IMG/VR virus record: IMGVR_UViG_2778261687_000006
Coordinates: 1 to 19,839 of that record
Reading direction: 5' to 3' (one strand)
Length of the DNA: 19,839 nt
Source of the DNA: a virus
Taxonomy: Duplodnaviria > Heunggongvirae > Uroviricota > Caudoviricetes
How positions within the stretch are numbered: position 1 is the first letter of the stretch; every line of letters starts with the position of its first letter. A model generated the notes under the pieces. The model was given only the letters and a program-made list of their open reading frames with translations. It made no database searches and was not told the origin of the DNA. Shown here in pieces: positions 1 through 16,752 of the stretch. The translations under genes were made by a program, and so were the position numbers.

Positions 1-195
1 TTAATTATTCTGCTGATTTTCTTCCATCTCTGCTTCTGCTGCCAGTGATTCAATTTTGTCTGCGAATATTGCTGACAGCGTTGCAAATTCAGCATCAGTG
101 ACAGCGGGAATTGGAACAAACCTGATCCCACTATGTGCAAGCATGTTTGCAGTTTCAAGGCATTTCCTTAAATCTGCAGGTGATGCCCTGTTCAT
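1..195 (-). CDS. Hypothetical small phage protein (about 64 aa); start ATG overlaps the stop of the upstream methyltransferase gene (ATGA)
   Basis: ORF track frame 1..315; internal ATG at 193-195 overlaps the TGA of the 192..842 gene, suggesting translational coupling. The longer 315 start would overlap the methyltransferase by about 120 nt. No family recognised. Confidence 0.4.
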   Translation of the reverse strand: MNRASPADLRKCLETANMLAHSGIRFVPIPAVTDAEFATLSAIFADKIESLAAEAEMEENQQNN

Positions 196-842
196 GCTGC
201 ACGCTCCCGTCCCTGGTTGTCTGTTGGTGACAGCGGAGCATTGCTGAATGCATTTGTTAATCCGCCAATATCCAACGCGTATCCTGGGTGTAGTTGCACG
301 GCCGGGTCTTCGCACTGATTACCCCAAACATCGAAGCCATGAGACGACTGGCGGGCGAACAGTTCAATGCGAGAAACATCGCCTAACAATTGCACAAGTT
401 TTTCACGAACGACATCTGGTTTTCTTGAATGCTCAAGCCGCGGTGCGGTAAATGACTGAACGATCCCTGCATTAATGCGCGTAGGTAGTTTTCCCTTAAC
501 TGCAAACAGGCAATCTTCACTATTGGCGCGAGTCATGTGCCCCATACCCATAACCAGTTTATCTGGTTGTCGACTACCACATTTTATCCACGTGAAGCCC
601 TTCATGGTCATCAGACGGAATCCCCAGGCTTCAACAACTTTTAGTGCTTCGAGTGGTTGTGTTGGCACCCACCACATGGCCAACAGACAGTTTTCACCGG
701 CCAAATCCCACACAGGAAGGCGGCAGATATCCAGCACACTCATAACCGGATATTTAAAACCGGCACCGCGATTACCATCTGCGGCTTTGTCCCGGTATAC
801 CCAGGGTGGATCTGCATAGATTAGTGTGTATTTCTTAGTCAT
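192..842 (-). CDS. MT-A70 family DNA N6-adenine methyltransferase (phage orphan methylase)
   Basis: 216 aa ORF with the catalytic DPPW motif in context LIYADPPWVY near the N-terminus, typical of MT-A70/Dam-like phage methyltransferases. No restriction endonuclease partner adjacent. Confidence 0.85.
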   Translation of the reverse strand: MTKKYTLIYADPPWVYRDKAADGNRGAGFKYPVMSVLDICRLPVWDLAGENCLLAMWWVPTQPLEALKVVEAWGFRLMTMKGFTWIKCGSRQPDKLVMGMGHMTRANSEDCLFAVKGKLPTRINAGIVQSFTAPRLEHSRKPDVVREKLVQLLGDVSRIELFARQSSHGFDVWGNQCEDPAVQLHPGYALDIGGLTNAFSNAPLSPTDNQGRERAA

Positions 843-1134
843 AAACCACCCCGCAACATCCTATGCCGCTATAGTCGCCACGGCGAAGGCCGTTACCTTT
901 TGTGATACATTGGTCCCTGCGAACCGCGATCCTTGCACGCTCAACATCACCAGAAGCAACATCCATACACTGAAGCCAAAGGTGGGCAGCAATGCGGAAC
1001 TGCCCTTTTTTCTCTCTTTCAATCGCGCGTTTTTCGATCTCTATCGCCGCAGGAGTAACGGCAACAACCTTTGAAGGGCTGCGCATTGAAACCTTGTTCA
1101 TGTGATATTTTTCAAGTCGGCTTAACTTTCTCAC
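835..1134 (-). CDS. Hypothetical phage protein; start uncertain (GTG 1134, ATG 1101 or ATG 1086)
   Basis: ORF of 99 codons from the GTG; 3' end overlaps the methyltransferase start by 8 nt. AAGG lies 6 nt upstream of the ATG at 1086. No recognisable domain. Confidence 0.4.
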   Translation of the reverse strand: MRKLSRLEKYHMNKVSMRSPSKVVAVTPAAIEIEKRAIEREKKGQFRIAAHLWLQCMDVASGDVERARIAVRRDQCITKGNGLRRGDYSGIGCCGVVYD

Positions 1135-1243
1135 TTAATCCAACCCTCTCTGAAAATTAATGCCAGCAGATAAAGCCATGCTGAAACAGAGGCCAGGAAT
1201 AAGTACCATCCTGACCATTTGCTCCAGAGCCTTAGCAGTACAC

Positions 1244-1492
1244 TCATGCCGCGTTGCTCACAGGACGATATACACGTTGCTGAACAGGAGGTTTTTTACC
1301 CTGGAACTCTGCCGGGCTTGCTGCCTGACGTTCATCAAGCCAACGCTCAACTTCATCACGGTTCCATGCGCAGCGTTTGTCAGTGATATACCAGCGTTTA
1401 GGAAATTCCCCTGCGCGCTCCATACGGTCGATAGTGCTCCATGACAGTGGCACCACCGCCAGGAGTTCCTTCTTACCTAATGCACCTTTCAT
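1244..1492 (-). CDS. AlpA-family phage transcriptional regulator / excisionase-like HTH protein
   Basis: 82 aa; segment LLAVVPLSWSTIDRMERAGEFPKRWYITDKRCAWNRDEVERWL matches the AlpA/Xis-like HTH pattern (helix ... AGEFP ... W..E...W). RBS GAGAGG 6 nt upstream of the ATG. Confidence 0.7.
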   Translation of the reverse strand: MKGALGKKELLAVVPLSWSTIDRMERAGEFPKRWYITDKRCAWNRDEVERWLDERQAASPAEFQGKKPPVQQRVYRPVSNAA

Positions 1493-1541
1493 AAATACCT
1501 CTCTTGGTTGCAGTGCGGCGCGTGTGGCGCCGCGGTGGTGG

Positions 1542-2483
1542 TTACATAGATGTTTCGTTTAATTCTTCCCGACGAACGCTGTAAACGTCGGTGGCTTTTG
1601 CCAGCAGTTCGTCATCATCTGAAAGTTTTTGTGCAATGTATTTGTAAGCCTTATCCAGTTCGGAGACAGTGCTGTAATTCATCGCTGCGCTGGTAAAGGC
1701 CATCAGCATTTCTTCTGGATCACGGCTATCCGATTTACGCGTTTGCTCATCAGGCTTTTTCGCTGGTTTAGCGTTGATCAGACTGTTCATTCCCGCAGCA
1801 GTGGTCGTTTGCGGAGTAATGTCTCGCTCAACGCGCGGTGCCGTTTCCTGTAATTCGTCTGGGGTGTAGACGCCCATGATTACGTCAGGACAGTGCAGGC
1901 GAGACCAGCGTTTTGTCGCAAGGTATGCGAGTTGTTGTTTCGGATCACTGGCCCAAAGTGTGGAGTTTCTTACCTGTGCTTGAGACAGCATTAACTCAAG
2001 CACTCGAGGTTGATCCTCGCCCTTCATGGTTGCCCATACGCGAACACCGCAGCCTTCTTCGTCTTTTAGAGTCCAGCCTGGTGCGATATATGGATTGCCG
2101 TTTTTGGATGTTTTCTCAACAAACTTACCGATCACGCGTTCCCACGGCCCGAACCACTCGTAGTTGATGCGATCTTTTGTTGGCGACATCGTTGAGATAA
2201 CTGCGTTTACTAATTGGGCTTCATAACCTAGCGTGCCGTTCACAACATGGGTTTTCTGAGCCACGGCAAACGGGTTCATTCCCCACTGCGCAGCCTGCAT
2301 TGCCACGGCCATGCAATCAGCTGGTTTCCCGGCGAGGTGCGCCGGTACCGTTACGCGGCTTTGCGCCATTACCTCGGCGAATTTCATCAGTTGGTTCAAG
2401 CCGTCTGGGCTGAAAATAGTTGCAGCAGTTCCAGCGATTGCTGTGTCTACTGGTGCGTTGATGTTTGCGATGTCGTTGCTCAT
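1542..2483 (-). CDS. RecT/Redbeta-superfamily single-strand annealing protein (phage recombinase)
   Basis: About 313 aa from the ATG at 2481-2483, which overlaps the TGA of the upstream exonuclease gene. Motifs WGMNPF and ERDITP resemble the lambda Bet / RecT family as I recall it. Paired with an exonuclease. Confidence 0.8.
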   Translation of the reverse strand: MSNDIANINAPVDTAIAGTAATIFSPDGLNQLMKFAEVMAQSRVTVPAHLAGKPADCMAVAMQAAQWGMNPFAVAQKTHVVNGTLGYEAQLVNAVISTMSPTKDRINYEWFGPWERVIGKFVEKTSKNGNPYIAPGWTLKDEEGCGVRVWATMKGEDQPRVLELMLSQAQVRNSTLWASDPKQQLAYLATKRWSRLHCPDVIMGVYTPDELQETAPRVERDITPQTTTAAGMNSLINAKPAKKPDEQTRKSDSRDPEEMLMAFTSAAMNYSTVSELDKAYKYIAQKLSDDDELLAKATDVYSVRREELNETSM

Positions 2484-3301
2484 ATGTACATATCCTGTTT
2501 GCGTGCCCACTCAGGGCGTTTAATGATTTCCACACCGCCCCATTCATCATTGATGCGGCATTCGTGATAGGTATTCAGATCCCGGCGGAACAGAGCGTGC
2601 CCGGCATCGACATCCTGCGCATCCAGCTCGAACACGCGTACCGGATACCGACCACAATCAATGCTTTCGCTCACGGCAAGAAAGAAAAAACCATGCGGCT
2701 GACCAGTAACCCTCATTGCGCCTTCGCGGTACATTGCGTCCTGCACGTGGTAGCGGAATTCCTCGATGTGGCGTGCAAAACGGTCCATATCTGCAACCTT
2801 TTTCACGTCGACGATCACGTTGTGCTCGTTCAGCCATTTGTCTGGACGAATTCGGCACAACTCACCCGTCTCTTCATCGTTCCAGTACATTGATGCTTCG
2901 CAGTAACCAGGTGCTTCCAACATCCAGCGTGCCGCCGGGTGAGCCATTGCGCTATCACGCATCAGCTCCAGTTTCCGCCACTGCTCGGCATCAAGTACCG
3001 TAATCCCCATATCCGCCACATCACGAAGAAATGCCTCTTCGTCAGCTTTACCTTGTTTCGTCCGACGATCGAATTTCGGTGAAACAATGAAGCGTTTGTC
3101 GAACTCTCTAGGCTCCAGAAGCAGACAGTGCAATGCGGTTCCCATATCCAGTGCAGACTTTTTCTCTTCGTCTTCTGGTGCTGCCTGAACCCATTTAAGA
3201 AGCGCCGGATTCTTGGCAACCATGTCCAGTTGCGACTTACTCACGCCGTCACCGGCGTGGTAGTCCTCATTGCTGATGTCGAAATAGATGCCAGTATTCA
3301 T
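2480..3301 (-). CDS. Phage PD-(D/E)XK exonuclease (YqaJ-like viral recombinase nuclease)
   Basis: 273 aa; N-terminal ISNEDYHAGDGVSKSQLD and a D...E.K-like core (RIRPDKW ... IVDVKKV), typical of YqaJ/lambda-Exo-like nucleases found upstream of RecT. Gene overlaps both neighbours. Confidence 0.8.
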   Translation of the reverse strand: MNTGIYFDISNEDYHAGDGVSKSQLDMVAKNPALLKWVQAAPEDEEKKSALDMGTALHCLLLEPREFDKRFIVSPKFDRRTKQGKADEEAFLRDVADMGITVLDAEQWRKLELMRDSAMAHPAARWMLEAPGYCEASMYWNDEETGELCRIRPDKWLNEHNVIVDVKKVADMDRFARHIEEFRYHVQDAMYREGAMRVTGQPHGFFFLAVSESIDCGRYPVRVFELDAQDVDAGHALFRRDLNTYHECRINDEWGGVEIIKRPEWARKQDMYI

Positions 3302-3504
3302 AACTTAACCTTGTATTCGTTCTGCTTGTTGGAACGGGTTCCATCGTGGAAATATATTGCGCTCCTGGTTACCTCTACCCATTTGCGACGTTCAAGCTCA
3401 GCGATGAACCAAGAAACCTTCGATCTTGAGATACCAAGAATCTTTGCCATATCTCGGATGCTGTGTTTTCCACCTCGCAGCAATGAGAGGAGTGTTGGTT
3501 TCAT
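3298..3504 (-). CDS. Small HTH / winged-helix DNA-binding protein
   Basis: 68 aa; HSIRDMAKILGISRSKVSWFIAELERRKWVEV looks like a helix-turn-helix. Start ATG 3502-3504 overlaps the stop of the upstream gene; stop overlaps the exonuclease start. Confidence 0.5.
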   Translation of the reverse strand: MKPTLLSLLRGGKHSIRDMAKILGISRSKVSWFIAELERRKWVEVTRSAIYFHDGTRSNKQNEYKVKL

Positions 3505-3800
3505 GCCGCGTCCCTCTGCCCATCAAGCTGATCAGCCAGATCCCAGCGGGCGATAATTGCCATTGCCTCGCGCCGGTAGGCATCCATTAGTTCTTCGAAC
3601 TCAGGGCTGTCTTTAGCGGCCTCCAGTACTTCCTGGCGAACGCCTTTAACTGTTACAACGTCGAAAGTTGATGCCAGTTGATGAAGCCGGATACTCTCAA
3701 TCAGTTCAACTTGTCGGTCATATAGCTGTTCTGACAGACGGTAGTCCTTGTCGAATGCCAGCATGATTTTTTGAAGATTTTTCTGCTGATTAACGTTCAT
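3501..3800 (-). CDS. Hypothetical early phage protein (99 aa)
   Basis: ORF in the 3501..3815 frame; preferred start is the ATG at 3798-3800 (MNVNQQ...), preceded by GGAGG at a good spacing. No family recognised. Confidence 0.5.
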   Translation of the reverse strand: MNVNQQKNLQKIMLAFDKDYRLSEQLYDRQVELIESIRLHQLASTFDVVTVKGVRQEVLEAAKDSPEFEELMDAYRREAMAIIARWDLADQLDGQRDAA

Positions 3801-3802
3801 TA

Positions 3803-3955
3803 TCAGCCCTCCCATATCTCGTTATCGTTGGCCACATCGCGAGCTTCTTTGCTGACGAAAGCCCACTTAATGCCTTCCTGTAAGGTGCGGAACTTCCAGC
3901 TCATGAATCCGCATGCAGTAACGCAGTACCAACCGTTGATGATTTTCCACTGCAT
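3803..3955 (-). CDS. Small 50-aa ORF, first gene of the leftward early operon; not in the ORF track
   Basis: Hand translation MQWKIINGWYCVTACGFMSWKFRTLQEGIKWAFVSKEARDVANDNEIWEG; GAGG 9 nt upstream; stop TGA 3803-3805 lies 2 nt from the next start (TGATAATG). Confidence 0.3.
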   Translation of the reverse strand: MQWKIINGWYCVTACGFMSWKFRTLQEGIKWAFVSKEARDVANDNEIWEG

Positions 3956-3974
3956 AACTTGTTACCTCGGTCTG

Positions 3975-3989
3975 TTACCGTTTAGGTAA
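3975..3989. promoter_or_regulatory. Dyad operator-like site TTACCGTTTAGGTAA
   Basis: Inverted half-sites TTACC / GGTAA with a 5-bp spacer, overlapping the start of the leftward transcript. Confidence 0.5.
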
Positions 3990-4017
3990 TAATTATGCGT
4001 ATGTGGTTTGATGTCAA
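3989..4017 (-). promoter_or_regulatory. Candidate leftward early promoter (pL-like): -35 TTGACA at 4012-4017 (minus strand), -10-like TAATTA near 3989-3994
   Basis: Perfect TTGACA on the minus strand, about 16 bp spacer, A/T hexamer; flanked by dyad sites at 3975-3989 and 4037-4051. Confidence 0.4.
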
Positions 4018-4036
4018 TAGATATGAGTTAAAAAAA

Positions 4037-4051
4037 TTACCCGTTAGGTAA
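4037..4051. promoter_or_regulatory. Dyad operator-like site TTACCCGTTAGGTAA
   Basis: Same TTACC-N5-GGTAA dyad, upstream of the pL-like -35. Confidence 0.5.
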
Positions 4052-4060
4052 TCGAATAGG

Positions 4061-4086
4061 CAATAAAAAAGCCGCCATAAGGCGGC
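4061..4086 (-). terminator. Rho-independent terminator for the repressor-like gene
   Basis: On the minus strand: GCCGCC-ttat-GGCGGC hairpin followed by TTTTTTATTG, directly downstream of the stop of the 4109..4693 gene. Confidence 0.7.
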
Positions 4087-4108
4087 TTACTTACTGAAAA
4101 ATATGGTT

Positions 4109-4693
4109 TTATTGTTTGTTTTTTTCGTTCTGGTTGATGACAAATTCAATGTAACTTTCGATCTTTGCTTTCTCGGTTTCGGGTAACAATGCGTAGCGCG
4201 AGCGATCATAGTTGATGGTCGCAGGGTCGTGCGGGTGAATCAGTAATTCATAGCCGTGACGCCCGAATGCGGATGCAACATTCTCCAGGGTGGAAATGGA
4301 AACGCTGACCTCATTGTTTAACAGGCGGCTGATTGTCACCTGGGCGACGCCGGATGCGCGGTGTAGTTTTCCCTGCGTTGAAAGGTCGCGGCTTTCGCTC
4401 ATCCAGCGTTCCAGGTTGTGAGCCGCCAACTGACCAATGTCGCTTGGGCCGACAGGCTGAAAACCTTCCTGAGAAAGCGAGCGATCGATATCAAGCCAGT
4501 TACGGGGTTTATTGGCGGCAGCTTCAATTTTTCGTGCAACCTGGTCGCCGATAACCTTCTTGCCAAGAGCCCAGCGGTTTACCAGATTTGCCTGAGTTCC
4601 AAGTTTTTCAGCCATCCGCGTCTGAACACCATTGAATTCACGGTCGATCAAGTCGTTGAGATTTTGCCTGCGGACGTCCTGGATACTTTTCAT
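4109..4693 (-). CDS. Phage repressor-like protein with two XRE-type HTH domains, no peptidase S24 domain evident
   Basis: 194 aa; two HTH-like segments (TRMAEKLGTQANLVNRWALGKKVIGDQVARKIEAA and LHRASGVAQVTISRLLNNEVSVSISTLENVASAFG). Divergent from a Cro-like gene with operator repeats between. No Ala-Gly/Ser/Lys autocleavage signature seen. Confidence 0.65.
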   Translation of the reverse strand: MKSIQDVRRQNLNDLIDREFNGVQTRMAEKLGTQANLVNRWALGKKVIGDQVARKIEAAANKPRNWLDIDRSLSQEGFQPVGPSDIGQLAAHNLERWMSESRDLSTQGKLHRASGVAQVTISRLLNNEVSVSISTLENVASAFGRHGYELLIHPHDPATINYDRSRYALLPETEKAKIESYIEFVINQNEKNKQ

Positions 4694-4748
4694 TTTCTGG
4701 AAAATCGCCTCATATCTGAATCAGAAGATGATTCAATTTAAAGCAATA

Positions 4749-4822
4749 TTACCCAACAGGTAAATGCACCTCACGGGTAACTATCCTTGATTTTTGTTAC
4801 CTTATAGGTGAATATTTATTAT
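4749..4822. promoter_or_regulatory. Immunity-region operator/promoter cluster: three dyad sites (4749-4763, 4766-4780 degenerate, 4797-4811) and a PR-like promoter (-35 TTGTTA 4794-4799, -10 TATTAT 4817-4822)
   Basis: Three TTACC-N5-GGTAA-type sites spaced about 17-30 bp apart between the divergent genes; the third sits in the spacer of a plus-strand promoter 26 bp upstream of the Cro-like ATG. Confidence 0.5.
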
Positions 4823-4847
4823 CTGAAATAAATATCAGGCAATAGCT

Positions 4848-5078
4848 ATGAGCGATAACGGACATTTCGATTTCAAAAAGCACTGGCTTGCACTTACTCC
4901 GGATGAGCGTGAAGCCTTCGCACAGGAAGCCGGAACGACGAGTCACTATATCCAGACTCACTTAACAGGTAAGCGCAAAATGCCAGGTAAGGTATTGATG
5001 GATGGGCTTTTTAAAGCCTGTAAATCAAGACAATGGCTGCGCTCAAAAGCAGAACTGGCATACTTCTTCTACTCATGA
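4848..5078 (+). CDS. Cro-like small HTH regulator
   Basis: 76 aa, divergent from the repressor-like gene; HTH-like segment TPDEREAFAQEAGTTSHYIQTHLTGKRKMP; followed directly by an intrinsic terminator. Confidence 0.55.
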   Translation: MSDNGHFDFKKHWLALTPDEREAFAQEAGTTSHYIQTHLTGKRKMPGKVLMDGLFKACKSRQWLRSKAELAYFFYS

Positions 5079-5100
5079 TATCCAGCCACAACCCTCTGTA

Positions 5101-5122
5101 GACCGCCATCCGGCGGTCTTTT
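5101..5122 (+). terminator. Rho-independent terminator after the Cro-like gene
   Basis: GACCGCC-atcc-GGCGGTC hairpin followed by TTTT. Confidence 0.6.
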
Positions 5123-5133
5123 CATATCTATTC

Positions 5134-5148
5134 GTACCTCAAAGGTAA
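5134..5148. promoter_or_regulatory. Dyad operator-like site GTACCTCAAAGGTAA
   Basis: TTACC-N5-GGTAA family member just after the Cro terminator; an ATATGGTT box follows at 5160-5167. Confidence 0.45.
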
Positions 5149-5161
5149 TAAAAAACCAAAT

Positions 5162-5422
5162 ATGGTTGATCTTTTTTTTGTGTCAGCACAAAATAACCGT
5201 AATCCCAATACCAATAACAGGGCTTACCATGGAAATCATTACACGTATTTCGCTGTGATGCTCGCCACCGGAGAGATGGAACTGCACGAAGTGAAAGGTT
5301 TCTGGACCGACGACGCCAGGGTGAAAACCAAAGTCGCCGCAGATCAGTATCCGTTCCGAATCATCGGGGTAACGGTTAAACCAAAGAAAGCAGGTGGTGG
5401 CTGGAACATCGAAGAGTTCTGA
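5162..5422 (+). CDS. Hypothetical small protein; start codon uncertain (ATG 5162, or internal ATGs giving about 48-55 aa)
   Basis: ORF track entry; the first ATG lies inside the conserved ATATGGTT box and lacks an RBS. Coding status doubtful. Confidence 0.3.
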   Translation: MVDLFFVSAQNNRNPNTNNRAYHGNHYTYFAVMLATGEMELHEVKGFWTDDARVKTKVAADQYPFRIIGVTVKPKKAGGGWNIEEF

Positions 5423-5483
5423 ATCGACGATCTTTTTAGTTATCAATGTAATCAATAAGTTATGTGGATAAGCGAGGGTAAAG

Positions 5484-6197
5484 ATGGAAAGTAATATCAA
5501 AGGGTTAGTTTCCGCCGGGCATGAGATGGCTTCGGAACTGAAAGCAGAATGTGGTGCCGTTGATATGCGCAGTGTGGCAAAGCTGATCAGCGATTTGGCA
5601 ACGCAACTGGAAGTGCAACTGGTGCGTGCTAATGCGCTGGCCGAAGACCACCAGAGAGCCATTGAGTCAATTAAACAGGCTGATTCGGCTGTTAAGTTGG
5701 CACACGAGAAGTTTTCGGCGCTGGCTGCGGAGAATGCAAGACTGAAGGCCGGGGCTATGTATTTCTCATATGGCTCTGAATTTAGTTTCGAGTGTCACAA
5801 AACTGCTGAGGAGGCTATCGCTGCTGCTGAGGCTGCAATTGACGACTATAGAGGCGATGCTTGCGATGGATGGAGCGAAGAGGTCGAAAGCATTTGCTGG
5901 GGGGTAATTATTCAGCAGGCAACCAAGGTCGGTGAACGCAAGAAGAGGAAATGCGACAGAGTATCACCATGGATTGAAAGAGTTTGTGATTATGAGCTTC
6001 GACCTAATGTCGAAACCCCAGCCACCGATGCTTTCCTTGCTGAAGTTCGGGCGCAGGGGGTGGATATGGCTCGTAACGCGATGATTGATTTTGTTGATGG
6101 TGAAGTTGGGCCAAACAAGAACGTTCCGGGGCTGATTAGAGGCGCAGAGATATGCGTAAGTATTGCTGAACAGCTTCGCAAAGGAGGCAACCAGTGA
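5484..6197 (+). CDS. Hypothetical phage early protein with coiled-coil N-terminus (possibly Ea22-like)
   Basis: 237 aa; RBS GAGGG before the ATG; heptad-like Ala/Glu-rich N-terminal region; stop overlaps the start of the next gene. Confidence 0.55.
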   Translation: MESNIKGLVSAGHEMASELKAECGAVDMRSVAKLISDLATQLEVQLVRANALAEDHQRAIESIKQADSAVKLAHEKFSALAAENARLKAGAMYFSYGSEFSFECHKTAEEAIAAAEAAIDDYRGDACDGWSEEVESICWGVIIQQATKVGERKKRKCDRVSPWIERVCDYELRPNVETPATDAFLAEVRAQGVDMARNAMIDFVDGEVGPNKNVPGLIRGAEICVSIAEQLRKGGNQ

Positions 6198-6761: not shown

Positions 6762-6769
6762 CATGTCAC
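6758..6769. repeat. Perfect 12-bp palindrome GTGACATGTCAC, copy 1
   Basis: Read directly; overlaps the stop codon of the 6540..6761 ORF, upstream of the terS terminator. Confidence 0.9.
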
Positions 6770-6810
6770 GAGTAGATTATGCATGATGAATTTGATGGGT
6801 TTTGAATACT

Positions 6811-6837
6811 GCCGCCAACTATGGCGGCTTTATTTTG
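6811..6837 (+). terminator. Terminator-like hairpin upstream of terS
   Basis: GCCGCC-aactat-GGCGGC followed by TTTATTTTG; same stem sequence as the 4061-4086 terminator. Confidence 0.5.
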
Positions 6838-6843
6838 CATGGT

Positions 6844-6872
6844 ACTATTACCACAACGGTAACTATTACCAC
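6844..6872 (+). repeat. Tandem direct repeat ACTATTACCAC (6844-6854 and 6862-6872) immediately upstream of terS
   Basis: GGTACTATTACCACAACGGTAACTATTACCACGG read directly; includes an inverted GGTAA-cta-TTACC arrangement. Confidence 0.8.
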
Positions 6873-6879
6873 GGTGGTT

Positions 6880-7476
6880 ATGATGCCTGCTGAACCTAAA
6901 ACCTATAAACGCAAATCAACGCAATTTAAGCCACTAACAGCAATGCAGGAGGCTTATTGCCAGTCATACATCAAAACGCCTGAAAACCAGACTCAGGCAG
7001 CGATTAACGCAGGATTTTCCCCAAATACAGCGGCAGTTAAAGCCAGTGTCATGATGCGCGATGAACGCATTCAAAAACGGATTGCCGAGTTGATGGAGGA
7101 GCGCAACAAACGAATGCGCGTCAGTGCTGATTACGTTCTCATGCGCCTGGTGGAGATCGACCAGATGGACGTGATTGATATCCTCAACGACGATGGGAGC
7201 CTTAAGCCAATCCGCGAGTGGCCGAAAATCTGGCGCACTACGCTTAGTGGCTTTGATCTGTCGTCGACCATCATGAACATGAACGAGGATTCGATAGAGA
7301 CAATCCTCAAAAAAATTAAATGGCCTGACAAGGTGAAGAACCTTGAGCTGATTGGTAAGCATGTTGATGTCAACGCGTTCAAAGAACGTCTGGATGTTAA
7401 TGTGAATGTGACAATTGCTGATCGCATAGCAGCAGCCAGGAAGCGACTCAAAGAACGTCAGGATGGTAATCAGTGA
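6880..7476 (+). CDS. Terminase small subunit (TerS)
   Basis: About 198 aa from the ATGATG at 6880; positioned immediately upstream of and overlapping the large terminase gene; basic helical N-terminal region (TAVKASVMMRDERIQKRIAEL) consistent with a DNA-binding small terminase. The track's TTG-start extension translates a direct-repeat region. Confidence 0.65.
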   Translation: MMPAEPKTYKRKSTQFKPLTAMQEAYCQSYIKTPENQTQAAINAGFSPNTAAVKASVMMRDERIQKRIAELMEERNKRMRVSADYVLMRLVEIDQMDVIDILNDDGSLKPIREWPKIWRTTLSGFDLSSTIMNMNEDSIETILKKIKWPDKVKNLELIGKHVDVNAFKERLDVNVNVTIADRIAAARKRLKERQDGNQ

Positions 7477-8948
7477 CAGATACAGCGTTATCTCCTGAAG
7501 AGCAGTTGATCGAGGATATTGCAGGGTTCACTCACGATCCGCTTGGCTATGCCCTCTATGCGTTCCCGTGGGGGGAAGAGGGGACTGAACTGGCACATGC
7601 TACCGGTCCACGTCAGTGGCAGGCTGATGCGTTCCGAGAGATACGTGATCACCTGCAGAATCCAGAGACGCGCTATCAGCCGCTTATGCTGGCACGTGCT
7701 TCTGGTCACGGTATTGGTAAATCCGCATTCATCTCAATGCTGATCAACTGGGGCATGTCCACTTGCGAGGATTGTAAGGTCGTGGTGACCGCCAATACCG
7801 ACAACCAGCTACGAACGAAGACCTGGCCGGAAATTATCAAGTGGTCGAACCTTGCTATCACGAAAGACTGGTTCACCTGTACCGCTACCGCGATGTACAG
7901 CAATGATCCTGGGCACGACAAGCGGTGGCGAGCTGACGCAATCCCCTGGTCTGAGCACAATACTGAGGCGTTCGCCGGACTACACAACGAGCGCAAACGT
8001 ATCATCGTGGTATTCGATGAAGCGTCGAACATTGCGGATCTGGTGTGGGAAGTTGCCGAGGGTGCGCTTACGGACGAAGACACTGAGATTATCTGGGTGG
8101 CGTTCGGAAACCCGACGCGTAATACCGGACGTTTCCGAGAATGTTTCCGCAAATATAAACACCGCTGGAAAACTGCGCAGATTGACAGCCGGACGGTTGA
8201 AGGCACTAACAAACAGCAGTTGCAGAAATGGGTTGATGACTACGGGGAAGACAGCGACTTCGTTAAAATCCGTGTGCGTGGCATATTCCCTGATGCATCT
8301 GAATTGCAGTTTATCCCTACCGGTCTTACTGACGAGGCAATGAAACGGGTGGTAACCGCTGCGCAGGTGGCACATGCTCCGGTGATAATCGGCGTTGACC
8401 CGGCATACTCCGGCGTTGATGACGCGGTGATATACCTGCGGCAGGGGCTGCACAGTAAGGTGCTGTGGACTGGCAACAAGACCACCGACGATCTGATTAT
8501 GGCGAAGCGTATCGCTGACTTTGAAGACCAGTATCAGGCCGACGCGGTGTTCATCGACTTCGGTTACGGTACTGGCCTGAAGTCAATCGGTGACGACTGG
8601 GGGCGCACATGGCAACTTGTTCCGTTCGGTGGCGCGTCTACTGACCCGCAGATGCTCAACAAGCGTGGGGAGATGTTCAACTCATGTAAGACATGGCTGA
8701 GGCTGGGCGGGATGCTGGATGACCAGGAAACAGCGGACGACCTGTCGACGGCAGAGTACAAAGTTCGCGTGGACGGTAAAATCGTTATCGAACCGAAGGA
8801 AGATATCAAAGAGCGACTTGGGCGTTCGCCGGGGAAAGGCGATGCGCTATTGCTGACGTTTGCTTTCCCTGTGTCGAAGCGCCTGCGAATTCCCGGTCAG
8901 CAGAACCAGCAAGGCAAGGCCATCACAGATTACGACCCGTTTGCGTGA
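7473..8948 (+). CDS. Terminase large subunit (TerL), ATPase plus nuclease
   Basis: 491 aa; Walker A-like ASGHGIGKSAF, Walker B-like RIIVVFDEASN, C-terminal acidic nuclease-like motif VIIGVDPAYSG. GTG start overlaps the terS stop (GTGA). Confidence 0.85.
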   Translation: MTDTALSPEEQLIEDIAGFTHDPLGYALYAFPWGEEGTELAHATGPRQWQADAFREIRDHLQNPETRYQPLMLARASGHGIGKSAFISMLINWGMSTCEDCKVVVTANTDNQLRTKTWPEIIKWSNLAITKDWFTCTATAMYSNDPGHDKRWRADAIPWSEHNTEAFAGLHNERKRIIVVFDEASNIADLVWEVAEGALTDEDTEIIWVAFGNPTRNTGRFRECFRKYKHRWKTAQIDSRTVEGTNKQQLQKWVDDYGEDSDFVKIRVRGIFPDASELQFIPTGLTDEAMKRVVTAAQVAHAPVIIGVDPAYSGVDDAVIYLRQGLHSKVLWTGNKTTDDLIMAKRIADFEDQYQADAVFIDFGYGTGLKSIGDDWGRTWQLVPFGGASTDPQMLNKRGEMFNSCKTWLRLGGMLDDQETADDLSTAEYKVRVDGKIVIEPKEDIKERLGRSPGKGDALLLTFAFPVSKRLRIPGQQNQQGKAITDYDPFA

Positions 8949-8949
8949 T

Positions 8950-9690
8950 TTATTGCTTATTTTTCACGGCTTCAGCAATCATTCTCTCAGCCTGTGATGT
9001 ATATGTTTTTCGCAAGGGTTCATGGCCCATATGCAATACGATACCTTCCTTTTCTTTTTCCTTTAATTCTTGTATGAGATTATTTATTTTGGCCTCCCTA
9101 TCTTCAAGCATTCTGGCGGACTTTTCTGCCTCAATCTTTAACGCTGCAGCCACTGATTGCATGTTTTCCAGCTTCTTATTCAATTCCAAAACCTTATCGG
9201 AGAGCCTATCTCTTTCCGCCGTTAGCTCACCCATCCTGGCCTGTGACTCCGTAATTCTTTCCTTCATAGCCTGTATGTCTTTTTCGGCGCCAGTCTTAAC
9301 TTTGTCGTATGTCACATCGTGCTTTGCCTTCAGGCGCTGCAGGCGTGTGGCGCGATGAATGCGCTTGGCCTTCCGGTGGTTCTCTATCGAATCGTAATTA
9401 TCAAGAGGTTTGGCTTGCCACTTTGAAATCACGTTGTTGATCCAGGGCATGCCGCCGCACAGGATTATTGCTGAAACACATGGGAATGCTAATACCGTTT
9501 TCCAACTGCTATTACTGGAAATGTAGGTGATCTTGTCGATGATGCTGGAGTCGCTGAGGAGTAAGTATAAAATCGACTTCCAGTTAAAGGCGCACCATGA
9601 CAGTGCGAACGCTCCAAACACTGGATTTCTGACCCTTTGCGCAGCGGTATTAACGGTTGAAGATAGGTATTCTTTAAGTGATTCAAGCAT
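8950..9690 (-). CDS. AT-rich cargo gene: membrane-anchored coiled-coil protein of unknown function (candidate superinfection-exclusion or abortive-infection factor)
   Basis: 246 aa; two hydrophobic segments near the N-terminus, then a long charged heptad-like region (KERITESQARMGELTAERDRLSDKVLELNKKLENMQ). AAGGG RBS. Convergent with terL with a 1-nt gap. Visibly AT-rich compared with neighbours. Confidence 0.55.
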   Translation of the reverse strand: MLESLKEYLSSTVNTAAQRVRNPVFGAFALSWCAFNWKSILYLLLSDSSIIDKITYISSNSSWKTVLAFPCVSAIILCGGMPWINNVISKWQAKPLDNYDSIENHRKAKRIHRATRLQRLKAKHDVTYDKVKTGAEKDIQAMKERITESQARMGELTAERDRLSDKVLELNKKLENMQSVAAALKIEAEKSARMLEDREAKINNLIQELKEKEKEGIVLHMGHEPLRKTYTSQAERMIAEAVKNKQ

Positions 9691-9720
9691 GTCCAGGCCC
9701 TTTTAGGTTTTTTTCTGATT

Positions 9721-9735
9721 CTACCTTTAAGGTAA
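9721..9735. promoter_or_regulatory. Dyad operator-like site CTACCTTTAAGGTAA in the promoter of the 8950..9690 gene
   Basis: Lies in the spacer of a candidate minus-strand promoter (ATGACC ... TAGAAT) about 40 bp upstream of the start codon. Confidence 0.45.
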
Positions 9736-9757
9736 TCTTCGGTCATTATGAAAAACG

Positions 9758-9803
9758 TATCCCTATGAGGGGATAATGTCGTTGATATCCTCTGATGAGG
9801 ATA
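9758..9803. promoter_or_regulatory. Two tandem dyads of a second type, TATCC-N8-GGATA (9758-9775 and 9786-9803)
   Basis: TATCCctatgaggGGATA and TATCCtctgatgaGGATA, 28 bp apart, upstream of the 8950..9690 promoter. Confidence 0.4.
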
Positions 9804-10424: not shown

Positions 10425-10501
10425 TGGCGTGGCATGCAGGATTCGAACCTGCGACCAACCGCTTAGAAGGCGGTTGCTCTGTCCAACTGAGCTAATGCCA
10501 C
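10425..10501 (-). tRNA. tRNA-Arg (anticodon UCU), phage-encoded
   Basis: Hand-folded cloverleaf on the minus strand: acceptor GTGGCAT/ATGCCAC, D-arm GCTC-AGTTGGACA-GAGC, anticodon arm ACCGC-CTTCTAA-GCGGT (U33, anticodon TCT, A37), variable loop TGGTC, T-arm GCAGG-TTCGAAT-CCTGC, discriminator G, encoded CCA. Acceptor and anticodon stems differ from host argU as I recall it. Confidence 0.85.
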
Positions 10502-10823: not shown

Positions 10824-10838
10824 TTACCTGAAAGGTAA
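10824..10838. promoter_or_regulatory. Dyad operator-like site TTACCTGAAAGGTAA
   Basis: Lies beside a minus-strand TTGACA (10855-10860) and about 70 bp upstream of a -10-like GATAAT (10899-10904) for the plus-strand operon. Confidence 0.45.
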
Positions 10839-10928
10839 TAATTTGCGCATTAAATGTCAACTGTCTACGACAAGTAAATCATATGTGGTTAAATTGGTGA
10901 TAATTTAATTGCGTACGGAGTCATTGAT

Positions 10929-11186
10929 ATGTGCATGGGTAGCTCACCATCAGTGCCTGCAACACCAGAAGTTCAGGCAGCACCACAGGAGCAGGATGCC
11001 GCCGTTGTTGATGCCCGCGACGAAGAAACTCGTCGCCGTCGCGCTGCTGCTGGTCGTAGTTCTACGCTGCTTGAGGCGGTGCAGAACCGCATGAACGATA
11101 TGTTCAATAAGTCGAATCTCTACCAGTCGCTGCCGGTGTTCAGCGGTATCTGCGTGTTAACTACTCCGTCGCAACTGGCCCACTAA
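10929..11186 (+). CDS. Hypothetical protein (85 aa); may be part of a frame-disrupted larger gene
   Basis: RBS GGAG 8 nt upstream of the ATG. A second frame stays open from 11111 to 11267 without any start codon and translates to protein-like sequence. Confidence 0.4.
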   Translation: MCMGSSPSVPATPEVQAAPQEQDAAVVDARDEETRRRRAAAGRSSTLLEAVQNRMNDMFNKSNLYQSLPVFSGICVLTTPSQLAH

Positions 11187-11279: not shown

Positions 11280-11630
11280 ATGTCAGGTGAGAAACCAAGA
11301 TACCGCGTTCTGCGCCTCTCTCATATCCATAACACTCTGTGGCCGGAGGGGGCAGAAATCGAATACGAAGGTGAGCCTGGTAGCGCACTGGAACCTGTTA
11401 ACGATGCAGCCAGACAGGCAAAAGCAAAGGTAGCAGGAAAGGTGTCAATGGCAGCAACCAGTACCAAAATCATCAACGATGTGTCAGATGATGGTGAGCT
11501 GGATAAGCTCCGTGAAGAGTACGAATTGCTCTTTAACGAGAAGCCACACCATAACGCCAAAGCCGAAACGCTCCGCGAGAAGATCGCAGATAACCGGTTC
11601 TGGTATTCAGCGTGGAACATGGAAAGGTGA
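11280..11630 (+). CDS. Hypothetical protein (116 aa)
   Basis: ATG at 11280 with RBS GGTGA 6 nt upstream; acidic, helical-looking sequence. The +1 frame stays open across its last 150 nt. Confidence 0.5.
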   Translation: MSGEKPRYRVLRLSHIHNTLWPEGAEIEYEGEPGSALEPVNDAARQAKAKVAGKVSMAATSTKIINDVSDDGELDKLREEYELLFNEKPHHNAKAETLREKIADNRFWYSAWNMER

Positions 11631-12433: not shown

Positions 12434-12691
12434 TTACCGGATTTGTTTTCGTAATTGTTCGGCACAATAGTCGAGATGTGTTTGCAGATCCTGCATAGAC
12501 ATCTGTGAGCTGGTGACGTAGTTAATCAGTGCAGTCAGTTCGGCAAGTGGGCCATCGACATTAAATCCATCCTTATCGAGATCCCGGAGTAATTTCATCA
12601 AGTGCGATCCCTCCACCAGTGACCTGACGCCTCCCGGCGTGTGAATCCTTTCGGTAAATCCGTCTTCCAGTGGATAGTGATACTGCTGCAT
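12434..12691 (-). CDS. Hypothetical protein (85 aa from the ATG at 12691)
   Basis: ORF track 12434..12757 with a GTG at 12757; the internal ATG at 12689-12691 has GGAG about 8 nt upstream. Divergent from the tailspike gene. Confidence 0.45.
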   Translation of the reverse strand: MQQYHYPLEDGFTERIHTPGGVRSLVEGSHLMKLLRDLDKDGFNVDGPLAELTALINYVTSSQMSMQDLQTHLDYCAEQLRKQIR

Positions 12692-12767
12692 CTTATCTTC
12701 TCCATGCAATAACTGTATATTTATGCAGTAGCAAATAATTTGTTTGCTATCCAGCACGTTTTGCGAA

Positions 12768-12782
12768 TCACCTGAAAGGTAA
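12768..12782. promoter_or_regulatory. Dyad operator-like site TCACCTGAAAGGTAA
   Basis: In the divergent intergenic region between the 12434..12691 gene and the tailspike gene; followed by the ATCCATATGTGGTT box (12809-12822) and a -10-like TAGAAT (12833-12838). Confidence 0.45.
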
Positions 12783-12886
12783 TATCTGTTCGTATTTATG
12801 GTTTATCTATCCATATGTGGTTTTTCAGGTAATAGAATAACCGGATATGCGGCGCAACGGGTGCTGCGACTATCTGGAGATTTAAC

Positions 12887-15576: not shown

Positions 15577-15600
15577 GCCCCGTAGAGGGGCTTTTTTTTT
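15577..15600. terminator. Bidirectional rho-independent terminator shared by the tailspike and acyltransferase genes
   Basis: GCCCC-gtaga-GGGGC hairpin flanked by AAAAA upstream and TTTTTTTTT downstream. Confidence 0.75.
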
Positions 15601-16588: not shown

Positions 16589-16641
16589 TTTAATATTTAT
16601 CCAATATTTTTAATGGGTTCCACAATCATTAACTACAATAT

Positions 16642-16656
16642 ATACCCATAAGGTAA
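16642..16656. promoter_or_regulatory. Dyad operator-like site ATACCCATAAGGTAA
   Basis: Between the acyltransferase and lysis genes; followed by ATCCATATATGGTT (16685-16699) and a -10-like TATGAT (16706-16711). Confidence 0.45.
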
Positions 16657-16752
16657 TTTAGTTAAGAGTTATCAGAGGTAAACTTATCCATATATGGTTT
16701 ATTGTGTATGATGGACTTACCAACTAAGGGGGTTCATTATGCACAGTAAACG

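What the first reader, a model, noticed from the sequence alone, without database searches (positions are those of the whole stretch)
3955..5148. Immunity switch with a tandem-HTH repressor lacking an autocleavage domain, three operators, and a terminator right after cro
The repressor-like protein carries two XRE-type HTH segments and no visible LexA-like peptidase S24 domain. This suggests prophage induction is not by RecA-stimulated self-cleavage but by an antirepressor or another signal, though no antirepressor gene is evident in the window. The Cro-like gene is followed within 25 nt by a strong intrinsic terminator, so rightward early transcription toward the Ea22-like and terminase genes needs antitermination or a separate promoter, which the dyad and box at 5134-5167 may provide. 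Three operators lie between the divergent genes in a lambda-like arrangement.
Basis: partly seen in the sequence, partly recalled or inferred. Interest (0 to 1): 0.45.

Follow-up and report, generated by a model that had tools for sequence, protein, structure and literature searches.

The report
Known Rep/Ant prophage immunity switch
This is the immunity region of a decayed phiV10/epsilon15-like (Uetakevirus) prophage of E. coli, whose non-cleavable repressor is switched off by a small SOS-controlled antirepressor; that mechanism has already been solved in the related Salmonella phage SPC32H, so the finding is real but ordinary.

Summary
The features are real. They are a 194-aa all-helical repressor with no S24 domain, operator dyads TTACC-N5-GGTAA, a Cro-like gene, and a hairpin terminator 21 nt after it.

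They are not new. The repressor is 100% identical to that of phages phiV10 and ZX5. It is a full-length homologue (42% identity, E=4e-42) of SPC32H Rep (PDB 5D50/5D4Z).

One is present at 12434-12691(-). It is 88% identical to SPC32H Ant (5D50 chain E) and has a LexA box 20 nt upstream of its start.

According to the structural literature, the second "HTH" is Rep's dimerisation domain, followed by a C-terminal tetramerisation and Ant-binding element.

Downstream of the cro terminator, 12 relatives from about 10 genera share an almost invariant TTGATC-N16/17-(C)AAAAT promoter (P2). A separate promoter, not antitermination, is therefore the likely route to the replication genes.

In this window those genes are deleted about 50 nt further on. 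The prophage is a multiply deleted remnant at guaA/yfgI.

Side observations:
- The operator dyad recurs at nearly every promoter region genus-wide.
- A second conserved box lies near many promoters.
- The LexA box carries a unique point change.

Verdict: already known; low interest.

The parts
3975..3989 (.). OL1 operator dyad TTACCGTTTAGGTAA. It abuts the -10 and start region of the leftward promoter.
   Evidence: Perfect motif match. Orthologous sites occur in phiV10, SPC32H and BUCT711.
3989..4017 (-). PL, the leftward early promoter (TTGACA-17-AATTAT). It drives p39, p38, recE/recT and downstream genes (3955 leftwards).
   Evidence: 10/12 consensus match. It is bracketed by OL1 and OL2.
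4037..4051 (.). OL2 operator dyad TTACCCGTTAGGTAA, 62 bp from OL1 and 20 bp upstream of the PL -35.
   Evidence: The same 62/63-bp pairing is seen in SPC32H, BUCT711 and at the DUF1064 promoter of phiV10.
4069..4088 (-). Intrinsic terminator ending the rep transcript.
   Evidence: 8-bp stem followed by UUUUUUAUU. -21.1 kcal/mol, z=-5.7. Annotated in the phiV10 record.
4109..4693 (-). rep, the prophage repressor (194 aa). Domains: N-terminal HTH DNA-binding domain, HTH_3-like middle dimerisation domain, C-terminal tetramerisation and Ant-binding helix.
   Evidence: 100% identical to phiV10 p40 and ZX5 ORF21. Matches 5D50_A at E=4e-42 over aa 1-190. 42% identical to SPC32H Rep. Further support from the AF2 model and Foldseek and Pfam.
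4749..4763 (.). OR-a operator TTACCCAACAGGTAA (rep-proximal).
4766..4780 (.). OR-b, a weaker operator GCACCTCACGGGTAA (2 mismatches).
   Evidence: The position is conserved in 13 loci, and variation among 80 close relatives is confined to the central spacer.
4787..4822 (+). PR, the rightward promoter for the cro-like gene. The conserved -35 is TTGATT at 4787-4792. The -10 is GAATAT (4810-4815) or TATTAT (4817-4822).
   Evidence: Consensus scan. TTGATTTTT is conserved in 13 loci. The exact start site was not determined.
4797..4811 (.). OR-c operator TTACCTTATAGGTGA, lying between the -35 and -10 of PR.
4848..5078 (+). Cro-like gene (76 aa), the first and only gene of the PR unit.
   Evidence: phrog_35 'transcriptional repressor', E=8.7e-13. 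No Pfam or PDB hit. 59-84% identical across genera. The Cro function is inferred from synteny only.
5100..5123 (+). Hairpin plus short U-tract: an intrinsic terminator of moderate predicted strength after cro.
   Evidence: A GC hairpin at the same place folds in all 13 relatives, with a variable U-tract.
5134..5148 (.). Operator-like dyad GTACCTCAAAGGTAA upstream of P2.
   Evidence: Only the right half-site GGTAA is invariant across relatives, so it is a weaker candidate.
5156..5165 (.). Conserved box CCAAATATGG, part of the near-palindrome AACCAAATATGGTT, abutting the P2 -35.
   Evidence: The binding factor is unknown.
5166..5194 (+). P2, a candidate promoter for the replication operon: TTGATC-17-CAAAAT.
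   Evidence: GGTTGAT.TTT and AAAAT are invariant in 12 loci of about 10 genera, with a variable 16-17-nt spacer. Both hexamers are retained across a mosaic breakpoint. It is below the threshold of the consensus scan (8/12).
5229..5249 (+). Remnant of the p42 start, cut by a deletion junction at 5247-5249. The deletion removes phiV10 33228-35318 (p42, DnaT-like and P-like replication genes, DUF1064 N-terminus).
   Evidence: blastn against phiV10. None of 80 close relatives has this junction.
12434..12691 (-). ant, the small SPC32H-type antirepressor (85 aa).
   Evidence: 5D50_E at E=1.6e-46. 88% identical to SPC32H Ant. Same position between the membrane-protein gene and the tail-fibre gene as in SPC32H.
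12711..12730 (.). LexA box AACTGTATATTTATGCAGTA, 20 nt upstream of the ant ATG.
   Evidence: It aligns with the SPC32H box, whose CAG-to-AAG change distinguishes SPC32N. The window carries a unique CTGT-to-CTGC change compared with 62 relatives.
12768..12782 (.). Operator-like dyad TCACCTGAAAGGTAA in the divergent ant / tail-fibre control region.
   Evidence: Orthologous sites occur in phiV10 (20877), SPC32H (20013) and BUCT711 (16965).

Best explanation
The region is the immunity switch of a Uetakevirus (phiV10/epsilon15-like) prophage. It works like the SPC32H Rep-Ant-LexA system.

Repression (inferred from homology and site positions):
- Rep (4109-4693, minus strand) binds TTACC-N5-GGTAA dyads through its N-terminal HTH.
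- It oligomerises through a middle HTH-like dimerisation domain and a C-terminal tetramerisation element.
- It thereby shuts the leftward early promoter PL (sites 3975 and 4037), the rightward promoter PR (site 4797 between -35 and -10; sites 4749 and 4766 upstream), and probably P2.

Induction (inferred from the homologous system):
- Rep has no S24 domain and is not cleaved.
- DNA damage removes LexA from the box at 12711-12730.
- The 85-aa Ant (12434-12691, minus strand) is then made and strips Rep from DNA.

Rightward transcription:
- The PR transcript carries only the Cro-like gene and largely ends at the hairpin at 5100-5123.
- The next unit starts at its own promoter P2 (5166-5194), not by antitermination.

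Status of the claims:
- Shown here: the homologies, the motifs, their conservation and their positions.
- Inferred: DNA binding, Ant-Rep interaction, LexA control, terminator efficiency and P2 activity.

In this window the prophage is a deletion remnant without replication, portal, capsid or most tail genes. The switch can at most confer immunity and supply Ant in trans.
For: Identity of the element:
- The window is 95-98% identical to phiV10, ZX5 and related phages in collinear pieces.
- It is integrated at guaA / yfgI-yfgH, matching the ZX5 attachment site (PMC9782041).

Rep:
- It is 100% identical to phiV10 p40 and ZX5 ORF21. ZX5 ORF21 overexpression abolished free phage and cut lysis-gene transcripts by more than 99.9% (PMC9782041).
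- It matches 5D50_A (E=4e-42, aa 1-190) and 5D4Z (E=4e-20). Foldseek's top hits are 5D50 and 5D4Z.
- The model is all-helical and Pfam gives no S24 hit.

Ant:
- It matches 5D50_E at E=1.6e-46 and is 88% identical to SPC32H Ant. Its gene position is syntenic with SPC32H.

LexA box:
- It aligns with the SPC32H box. The H/N difference sits in that box.
- 62 relatives keep a perfect CTGT-N8-ACAG.
- phiV10-species prophages are induced by a DNA-damaging microcin (bioRxiv 10.64898/2026.05.26.727859).

Mechanism of the homologue:
- Rep binds DNA as a tetramer on palindromic sites, and tetrameric Ant disassembles it (PMC9638917).
- Rep's domain order is DBD-MDD-CAD (PMC9986798).

Operators:
- They are enriched and positionally conserved in 13 loci.
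- Rep's recognition-helix segment NLVNRW is conserved between the window and SPC32H. In the 24-member alignment only N35, R39 and W40 of it are invariant.

P2:
- The -35 and -10 blocks are invariant and are retained across a mosaic junction.

Terminator:
-.
Against: - No binding, transcript or induction data exist for this sequence.
- The primary SPC32H papers (PMC3807360, PMC4983836) and the epsilon15 genome paper (PMC2698709) are not held in the library. The mechanism is therefore cited from secondary descriptions and from my own recollection of the abstracts.
- Rep is only 42% identical to the crystallised protein.
- P2 scores 8/12 and was not called by the consensus scan. No consensus promoter was called for ant either.
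- The left half-site of the 5134 dyad is degenerate in several relatives.
- The U-tract after the hairpin is short. It is lacking in Salmonella, Citrobacter and Klebsiella relatives, where the hairpin may not terminate.
- Formal covariation in the stem is weak, because the stem sequence is largely conserved and the alignment slipped.
- The window's LexA box carries a consensus-position change (CTGC) of unknown effect.
Confidence: 0.85

Rival explanations
1. Rightward early transcription comes only from PR and must read through the 5100-5123 terminator with the help of a phage antiterminator, as with lambda N or Q.
For: A plausible intrinsic terminator sits directly after cro. P2 is a sub-threshold consensus match. 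The small leftward genes p39 and p38 have no known function and could in principle encode such a factor.
Against: The -35 and -10 blocks after the terminator are invariant in 12 diverse loci and survive a module swap. No N-, Q- or nut-like element was identified. The phiV10 genome carries eight annotated putative terminators, and most of the units that follow start with their own operator-bearing region. In several genera the hairpin lacks a U-tract.
Confidence: 0.1
2. The TTACC-N5-GGTAA dyads are bound mainly by a regulator other than Rep. Candidates are the Cro-like protein, or the AlpA-like or PerC-like regulators of the left operon. They would then be a general phage promoter element rather than immunity operators.
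For: The dyads occur upstream of late, lysis, int and terS units, far from the core promoter in some cases. The half-site is the same in phages whose Reps are only 42% identical. No footprint could be consulted.
Against: The densest clusters flank rep itself at PL and PR, in positions that occlude -35/-10. Rep's recognition-helix segment NLVNRW is the same in the window and SPC32H, although only N35, R39 and W40 are invariant family-wide. Secondary literature says SPC32H Rep binds palindromic sites. Sharing of sites by Rep and Cro would be normal and is not exclusive.
Confidence: 0.12
3. In this particular window the switch is an inert relic. The prophage is decaying, and rep, cro and ant are no longer expressed or selected.
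For: There are at least five deletions with micro-homology junctions. These include loss of the replication module about 50 nt downstream of the P2 -10 hexamer and loss of the portal, capsid and tail genes. The LexA box has a unique consensus-position mutation. No complete E. coli genome and none of 80 IMG/VR relatives share this arrangement.
Against: rep is intact and 100% identical to that of active phages. cro, ant, all the operators and both terminators are intact. Repressor retention in remnants commonly gives superinfection immunity (general knowledge).
Confidence: 0.2
4. Rep is inactivated by RecA-stimulated self-cleavage through a cryptic site, as with lambda CI.
For: None, beyond the general precedent.
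Against: There is no S24 match in Pfam. The model is all-helical. Foldseek finds only Rep and XRE-HTH folds. The homologous SPC32H Rep is reported to be controlled by Ant.
Confidence: 0.02

Closest known systems
Salmonella phage SPC32H Rep-Ant-LexA antirepression switch (Kim & Ryu 2013, J Virol; Kim et al. 2016, PNAS; PDB 5D4Z, 5D50)
   Same: Same genus (Uetakevirus) and the same gene order. Rep is homologous over its full length (42% identity, E=4e-42). Ant is 88% identical. A LexA box sits at the same place upstream of ant. Both use TTACC-N5-GGTAA dyads in OL, OR and after cro.
   Different: Rep sequence, and the central operator bases, differ (C/G-containing spacers here, A/T-rich in SPC32H). 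OL has two sites here against three. The post-cro hairpin has a U-tract here but not in SPC32H. The window's LexA box reads CTGC. The prophage here is defective.
Escherichia phages phiV10 (DQ126339) and vB_EcoP_ZX5 (MW722083; PMC9782041)
   Same: Rep is 100% identical, and the immunity region is 98% identical at the DNA level up to 5249. The phiV10 record already notes 'two helix-turn-helix motifs' and both terminators. ZX5 Rep overexpression blocks lytic growth.
   Different: Those phages are complete. They additionally carry a Bro-type antirepressor downstream of small ant, which the window lacks. The ZX5 paper attributes antirepression to the Bro-type ORF4 and does not mention small Ant or LexA.
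Lambda CI/Cro switch with OL, OR and divergent PRM/PR
   Same: Repressor and cro-like genes are divergent, with three dyads between them. A second operator cluster lies at a leftward early promoter. The repressor gene is insulated between the two.
   Different: There is no S24 autocleavage domain. Induction is by antirepressor. Cro is a monocistronic, terminator-bounded unit followed by its own promoter. Dyads also occur at many other promoters. The repressor acts as a tetramer in a 'trans' DNA-binding arrangement, according to the SPC32H literature.
LexA-controlled antirepressors of Gifsy/Fels-2 prophages (PMC3121763) and P22 Ant
   Same: The logic is the same: a non-cleavable repressor is inactivated by an SOS-induced (Gifsy) or separately regulated (P22) antirepressor, with the possibility of action in trans.
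   Different: The Ant fold is unrelated. Here it is an 85-aa protein, phrog_450, whose only weak PHROG tie to antirepressors is E=4.5e-7 over aa 27-75. It is not a Bro, KilA-N or ANT-domain protein.
Phage P1 C1 repressor with operators scattered over the genome (from my own knowledge, not checked here)
   Same: One dyad type recurs at many separately repressed transcription units.
   Different: The protein is unrelated, and P1 operators are asymmetric. Occupancy of the distributed sites has not been shown here.

Membership tests
SPC32H-type Rep/Ant antirepression switch | Repressor homologous to SPC32H Rep over all three domains (DBD, MDD, CAD) | tested here: met
   phmmer against 5D50_A gives E=4e-42 over aa 1-190. 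BLASTP gives 42% identity over 196 columns. Foldseek's top hits are 5D50 and 5D4Z.
SPC32H-type Rep/Ant antirepression switch | No LexA-like S24 autocleavage domain | tested here: met
   Pfam shows HTH families only. The AF2 model is all-helical. No S24 fold appears among 384 Foldseek matches at E<=10, of which the top 50 were inspected.
SPC32H-type Rep/Ant antirepression switch | Small Ant homologous to SPC32H Ant, encoded between the tail-module end and the tailspike or fibre gene | tested here: met
   12434-12691(-) matches 5D50_E at E=1.6e-46 and is 88% identical. Synteny with SPC32H_020.
SPC32H-type Rep/Ant antirepression switch | LexA box overlapping the ant promoter | tested here: inconclusive
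   A box is present at 12711-12730, aligned with the SPC32H and phiV10 boxes. It retains CTG...CAG but reads CTGC in one half, a change unique among 62 relatives. Its effect on LexA binding is unknown.
SPC32H-type Rep/Ant antirepression switch | Aromatic residues of the tetramer interface (Phe187 and Phe190 in SPC32H Rep, per PMC9986798) | tested here: met
   The aligned residues are Tyr and Phe in ...IESYIEFVI.... Phe183 is invariant in 24 family members. Oligomeric state was not tested.
SPC32H-type Rep/Ant antirepression switch | Rep binds palindromic operators, and Ant binding releases it | not testable with these tools
   Only the candidate dyads and their conservation could be shown.
Lambda CI / LexA-type autocleaving repressors | C-terminal peptidase S24 domain with a Ser-Lys dyad and an Ala-Gly cleavage site | tested here: not met
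Lambda-like tripartite OR between divergent repressor and cro genes | Three dyad operators overlapping divergent promoters | tested here: met
   Three dyads at 4749, 4766 and 4797. The last lies between the PR -35 and -10. The promoter for rep itself was not identified.
Bro / KilA-N / ANT-domain antirepressors (P22 Ant, phiV10 p23, ZX5 ORF4) | A Bro-N or ANT domain protein encoded in the element | tested here: not met
   The phiV10 segment 19522-20542 that carries p23 has no counterpart in the window. No such ORF lies between 12426 and 12434.
Rho-independent terminator | GC-rich hairpin immediately followed by a U-run | tested here: met
   5100-5119 has 8 bp with 6 GC, then UUUUCAU. The hairpin is present in all 13 relatives and the U-run in about half. 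Efficiency is not testable here.

The most novel reading that the evidence does not exclude
The Rep dyad is not just an OL/OR operator. It marks nearly every transcription unit of Uetakeviruses:
- the terS region, the head operon, the ant/tail-fibre region, the lysis cassette, int and the DUF1064 gene;
- often as pairs 62 bp apart that bracket a promoter.

Under this reading a tetrameric, loop-forming Rep directly silences the whole genome in a P1-C1-like distributed fashion.

A second, unassigned palindromic box (about AACCATATATGGTT) would define the lytic promoters.

In this remnant, a point-mutated LexA box could make a trans-acting Ant leaky enough to influence co-resident or incoming phiV10-like phages.

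I could not check whether the primary SPC32H or epsilon15 papers already describe the distributed sites.
Probability: 0.3. Interest if true: 0.4.

Novelty: already known. Interest (0 to 1): 0.15.

Why it matters
It matters little as a discovery. The switch is a textbook example of a mechanism already solved structurally in a congeneric phage, and the repressor is identical to that of published E. coli phages.

Its practical value lies in annotation:
- The 85-aa 'hypothetical protein' next to the tail-fibre gene of E. coli Uetakevirus prophages is the SPC32H-type antirepressor, with a LexA box.
- The one E. coli study of this repressor (ZX5) did not note this.
- The record shows that a heavily deleted prophage can keep a complete SOS-wired immunity cassette.

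Tried and rejected
- I tried to read the primary papers (PMC3807360, PMC2698709, PMC4983836). None is held, so the published operator maps could not be compared.
- I searched Pfam and the PDB for the Cro-like protein and found nothing. Only a PHROG 'transcriptional repressor' family matched.
- The formal covariation test of the post-cro hairpin was uninformative. MAFFT mis-registered loops of different length and the stem is mostly conserved. I relied instead on independent folding of each homologue.
- The strict sigma-70 scan found neither P2 nor an ant promoter. P2 rests on conservation alone.
- I looked for the window's arrangement in 5,426 complete E. coli genomes and in 80 IMG/VR relatives. 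There was no full-length match and no shared deletion junction.
- I considered ORF 5162-5422 as a gene and rejected it. It is a junction artefact that fuses upstream non-coding sequence to the DUF1064 C-terminus.
- I considered the ATATGTGGTT box as a DnaA or IHF site, from memory of their consensus sequences. The fit is poor and I dropped the idea.
- Rfam found only the tRNA.
Full report
WHAT THE WINDOW IS

Megablast places 3700-5249 at 98% identity on Escherichia phages phiV10, ZX5, PAS61, phiv142-3 and others of the genus Uetakevirus.

A blastn map of the whole window on phiV10 shows collinear pieces separated by deletions:
- window 1-3301 = phiV10 28181-31482
- 3497-5249 = 31475-33227
- 5247-5641 = 35319-35713
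- 6762-8944 = 1-2183 (terminase genes)
- four short pieces of the head and tail region between 9769 and 12426
- 12434-13422 = 20543-21531
- 16640-18678 = 24689-26736

The junctions overlap by 3-8 nt. The right end of the window is host DNA (yfgI, yfgH), and related prophages sit at the 3' end of guaA, the published ZX5 attachment site (PMC9782041).

The window is therefore a multiply deleted prophage remnant. It lacks the replication module, the portal, the capsid and most tail genes. No complete E. coli genome and none of 80 close IMG/VR relatives has this exact arrangement.

CHECKING THE OBSERVATION

The repressor ORF (4109-4693, minus strand, 194 aa) matches Pfam HTH_3 at aa 106-147 (E=1.2e-9). 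It also matches a Cro/YdaS-type HTH weakly at aa 21-61, and nothing else.

An AlphaFold model built on 24 family members (mean pLDDT 77.9) is entirely helical. It shows two 4-5-helix bundles and a long C-terminal helix. Foldseek against the PDB returns the SPC32H repressor first and XRE-type HTH proteins after it. No S24 fold appears.

The spacer between rep and the Cro-like gene (4848-5078) holds three dyads of the form TTACC-N5-GGTAA, at 4749, 4766 and 4797.

The motif is far above chance:
- 23 sites with up to 2 mismatches against 5.9 expected;
- 11 sites with up to 1 mismatch against 0.66 in shuffles.

The hairpin at 5100-5119 followed by UUUUCAU starts 21 nt after the cro stop codon.

The described features are therefore real. 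However, the terminator is moderate rather than strong. The operators are more numerous than three. And the statement that no antirepressor is visible is wrong.

WHAT IT IS

A sequence search of the PDB identifies the repressor as a full-length homologue of Rep from Salmonella phage SPC32H: 5D50 chain A at E=4e-42, and 5D4Z (residues 92-198) at E=4e-20. The two are 42% identical.

ORF 12434-12691 (minus strand, 85 aa) is 88% identical to SPC32H Ant, the antirepressor in the same crystal (5D50 chain E, E=1.6e-46). It occupies the same position as ant in SPC32H, between a small membrane-protein gene and the tail-fibre gene.

The sequence AACTGTATATTTATGCAGTA (12711-12730) lies 20 nt upstream of the ant start codon. 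It aligns with the CTGT-N8-ACAG boxes of phiV10 and SPC32H. Comparing the SPC32H and SPC32N records shows that one of their two differences is CAG to AAG in this very box. This agrees with my recollection of the Kim & Ryu 2013 abstract, which reports that a LexA-box mutation makes Ant constitutive.

Secondary sources describe the mechanism of the homologue:
- Rep binds palindromic sites as a tetramer whose DNA-binding pairs come from different dimers, and tetrameric Ant disassembles it (PMC9638917).
- Rep consists of an N-terminal DNA-binding domain, a middle dimerisation domain and a C-terminal tetramerisation and Ant-binding element with Phe187 and Phe190 at the interface (PMC9986798).
- The aligned residues here are Tyr and Phe.

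Two further reports fit the model. The identical ZX5 repressor blocks lytic growth when overexpressed (PMC9782041). phiV10-species prophages are induced by a DNA-damaging microcin (bioRxiv 10.64898/2026.05.26.727859).

THE OPERATORS AND PROMOTERS

PL is a good sigma-70 match (TTGACA-17-AATTAT, 4017-3989, minus strand). It is bracketed by dyads at 3975-3989 (at the -10 and start) and 4037-4051 (20 bp upstream of the -35), which are 62 bp apart. rep is insulated from PL by a strong terminator at 4088-4069 (-21.1 kcal/mol).

At PR, the dyad at 4797 lies between a genus-wide conserved TTGATT -35 and the -10. The other two dyads lie upstream, towards rep.

Thirteen loci were compared: window, SPC32H, Tyrion, BUCT554, BUCT711, two Citrobacter, Erwinia, Kluyvera, Buttiauxella, Pseudocitrobacter, Scandinavium and Klebsiella. 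All keep the same three-site layout.

Among 80 near-identical relatives, the variation inside the sites falls in the central N5 and at the outermost base of the weak sites. The ACC...GGT cores do not vary.

The Rep segment NLVNRW in the predicted recognition helix is conserved between the window and SPC32H. This fits the shared half-site. In the 24-member family alignment, only N35, R39 and W40 of that segment are invariant.

AFTER CRO: TERMINATOR AND A SECOND PROMOTER

Each of the 13 homologous regions folds into a GC-rich hairpin 22-25 nt past the cro stop codon. The U-tract varies:
- good in Buttiauxella and Scandinavium;
- short in the E. coli and Enterobacter group;
- missing in Salmonella, Citrobacter and Klebsiella.

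An alignment of the next ~110 nt in 12 loci shows three invariant blocks separated by variable sequence: GGTAA (the right half of a dyad), GGTTGAT(C)TTT, and AAAAT located 16-17 nt further on. This is the signature of a promoter with -35 TTGATC and -10 (C)AAAAT (window 5166-5194).

In some relatives a different replication module is joined exactly at TTGATC, and it brings its own GCAAAAT at the right distance.

P2 is below the threshold of the consensus scan (8/12), so its activity is an inference from conservation.

The phiV10 record marks eight putative terminators, including those after rep, cro, the replication genes, terL and the lysis genes. Most of the units that follow begin with an operator-bearing region.

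In this window P2 has almost nothing left to express. The p42 ORF starting at 5229 is cut after seven codons by the deletion junction at 5247-5249. 'ORF 5162-5422' is a junction artefact carrying only the C-terminal third of the DUF1064 protein.

BEYOND THE FINDING

The dyad recurs in orthologous intergenic regions of phiV10, SPC32H and the Klebsiella phage BUCT711. These regions are:
- upstream of terS (window 6848 and 6866);
- upstream of the head operon (10824);
- in the ant/tail-fibre divergent region (12768);
- upstream of the lysis cassette (16642);
- upstream of int;
- as a 62-bp pair at the DUF1064 promoter, which is deleted here.

In phiV10, 12 of 14 sites lie in the 6.5% of the genome that is non-coding (P=4.5e-13). 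The other two lie upstream of the SPC32H-type terS start.

A second box, about AACCATATATGGTT, abuts the P2 -35. It also occurs 9 nt upstream of -10-like hexamers before the head, tail-fibre and lysis units. Its binding factor is unknown.

The window's LexA box differs by one base (CTGT to CTGC) from the commonest version. All 62 informative relatives keep a perfect box.

COMPARISON AND VERDICT

The element is a member of the SPC32H-type Rep/Ant/LexA family. The homology, domain content, gene order and LexA-box features were tested and met. The one caveat is the mutated box. Binding steps cannot be tested here.

It resembles lambda in the layout of OL, OR and divergent promoters, but fails lambda's defining S24 feature. 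It lacks the Bro-type antirepressor that phiV10 and ZX5 carry in addition.

Nothing in 3955-5148 is new. The phiV10 GenBank record already annotates the 'two helix-turn-helix motifs' and both terminators.

I rate it already known and of low interest. The distributed dyads, the second box and the remnant's altered LexA box are modest side leads.

Noticed in passing
window 12711-12730: The LexA box upstream of ant reads CTGC in one half-site (ant strand TACTGCATAAATATACAGT). The commonest box among close IMG/VR relatives differs only at that base, and all 62 informative relatives keep a perfect CTGT-N8-ACAG. SPC32N's constitutive-ant mutation is in the other half of the box (CAG to AAG).
   Followed up: partly
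window 6848-6880, 9721-9735, 10824-10838, 12768-12782, 16642-16656; phiV10 L002 87, 3252, 20877, 24692, 26870, 35070, 35132; SPC32H L007; BUCT711 L100: The TTACC-N5-GGTAA dyad recurs in orthologous intergenic regions of three diverged Uetakeviruses: terS, head operon, ant/tail fibre, lysis, int and the DUF1064 gene. In phiV10, 12 of 14 sites lie in the 6.5% non-coding DNA (P=4.5e-13). Pairs 62-63 bp apart bracket PL and the DUF1064 promoter.
   Followed up: partly
window 3997-4008, 5156-5167, 10881-10890, 12813-12822, 16690-16699: A second conserved box (about AACCATATATGGTT / CATATGTGGTT) abuts the P2 -35. It also lies 9 nt upstream of -10-like hexamers before the head, tail-fibre and lysis units. 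It is conserved between phiV10 and SPC32H. The binding factor is unknown.
   Followed up: partly
window 5247-5249, 11069-11072, 11130-11135, 11589-11596: Deletion junctions with 3-8 nt of overlap remove the replication module and the portal, capsid and tail genes. The prophage is a defective remnant at guaA/yfgI. Neither complete E. coli genomes nor 80 IMG/VR relatives share the 5247 junction.
   Followed up: yes
window 8945-9768: An ~825-bp insertion relative to phiV10, between terL and the gp49-like gene, carries a 246-aa minus-strand ORF (8950-9690). It matches phrog_4780 (unknown function), has no significant Pfam hit, and is preceded by an operator-like dyad at 9721.
   Followed up: partly
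window 12434-12691 versus 4109-4693: Ant is 88% identical to SPC32H Ant, while its partner Rep is only 42% identical. This hints that Ant contacts a conserved surface and might act on heterologous Reps in trans.
   Followed up: no
window 4812-4835: An inverted repeat ATTTATT-N-AATAAAT lies at the -10 and start of PR. Relatives have a different palindrome at the same position (SPC32H ATTCAGATATGAAT; BUCT711 TTAGTCCGGGACTAA). It may form a 5' RNA hairpin or serve as a second-factor site.
   Followed up: no
window 10425-10501 (-), 15599-16588 (-), 12887-15571 (+): The window also carries a tRNA-Arg(tct), an Acyl_transf_3 O-antigen acetylase-like gene, and an 894-aa tail fibre with an S74 chaperone domain. 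Only the first ~540 nt of the tail-fibre gene (12887-13422) match phiV10, at about 85% identity; the rest has no match, so the gene is mosaic.
   Followed up: partly
ZX5 locus L010 1078-2346; phiV10 L002 19646-20800: In complete E. coli Uetakeviruses, the small ant gene is followed in the same operon by a Bro-type antirepressor. The ZX5 paper tested only the Bro-type protein and left small ant annotated as hypothetical.
   Followed up: partly
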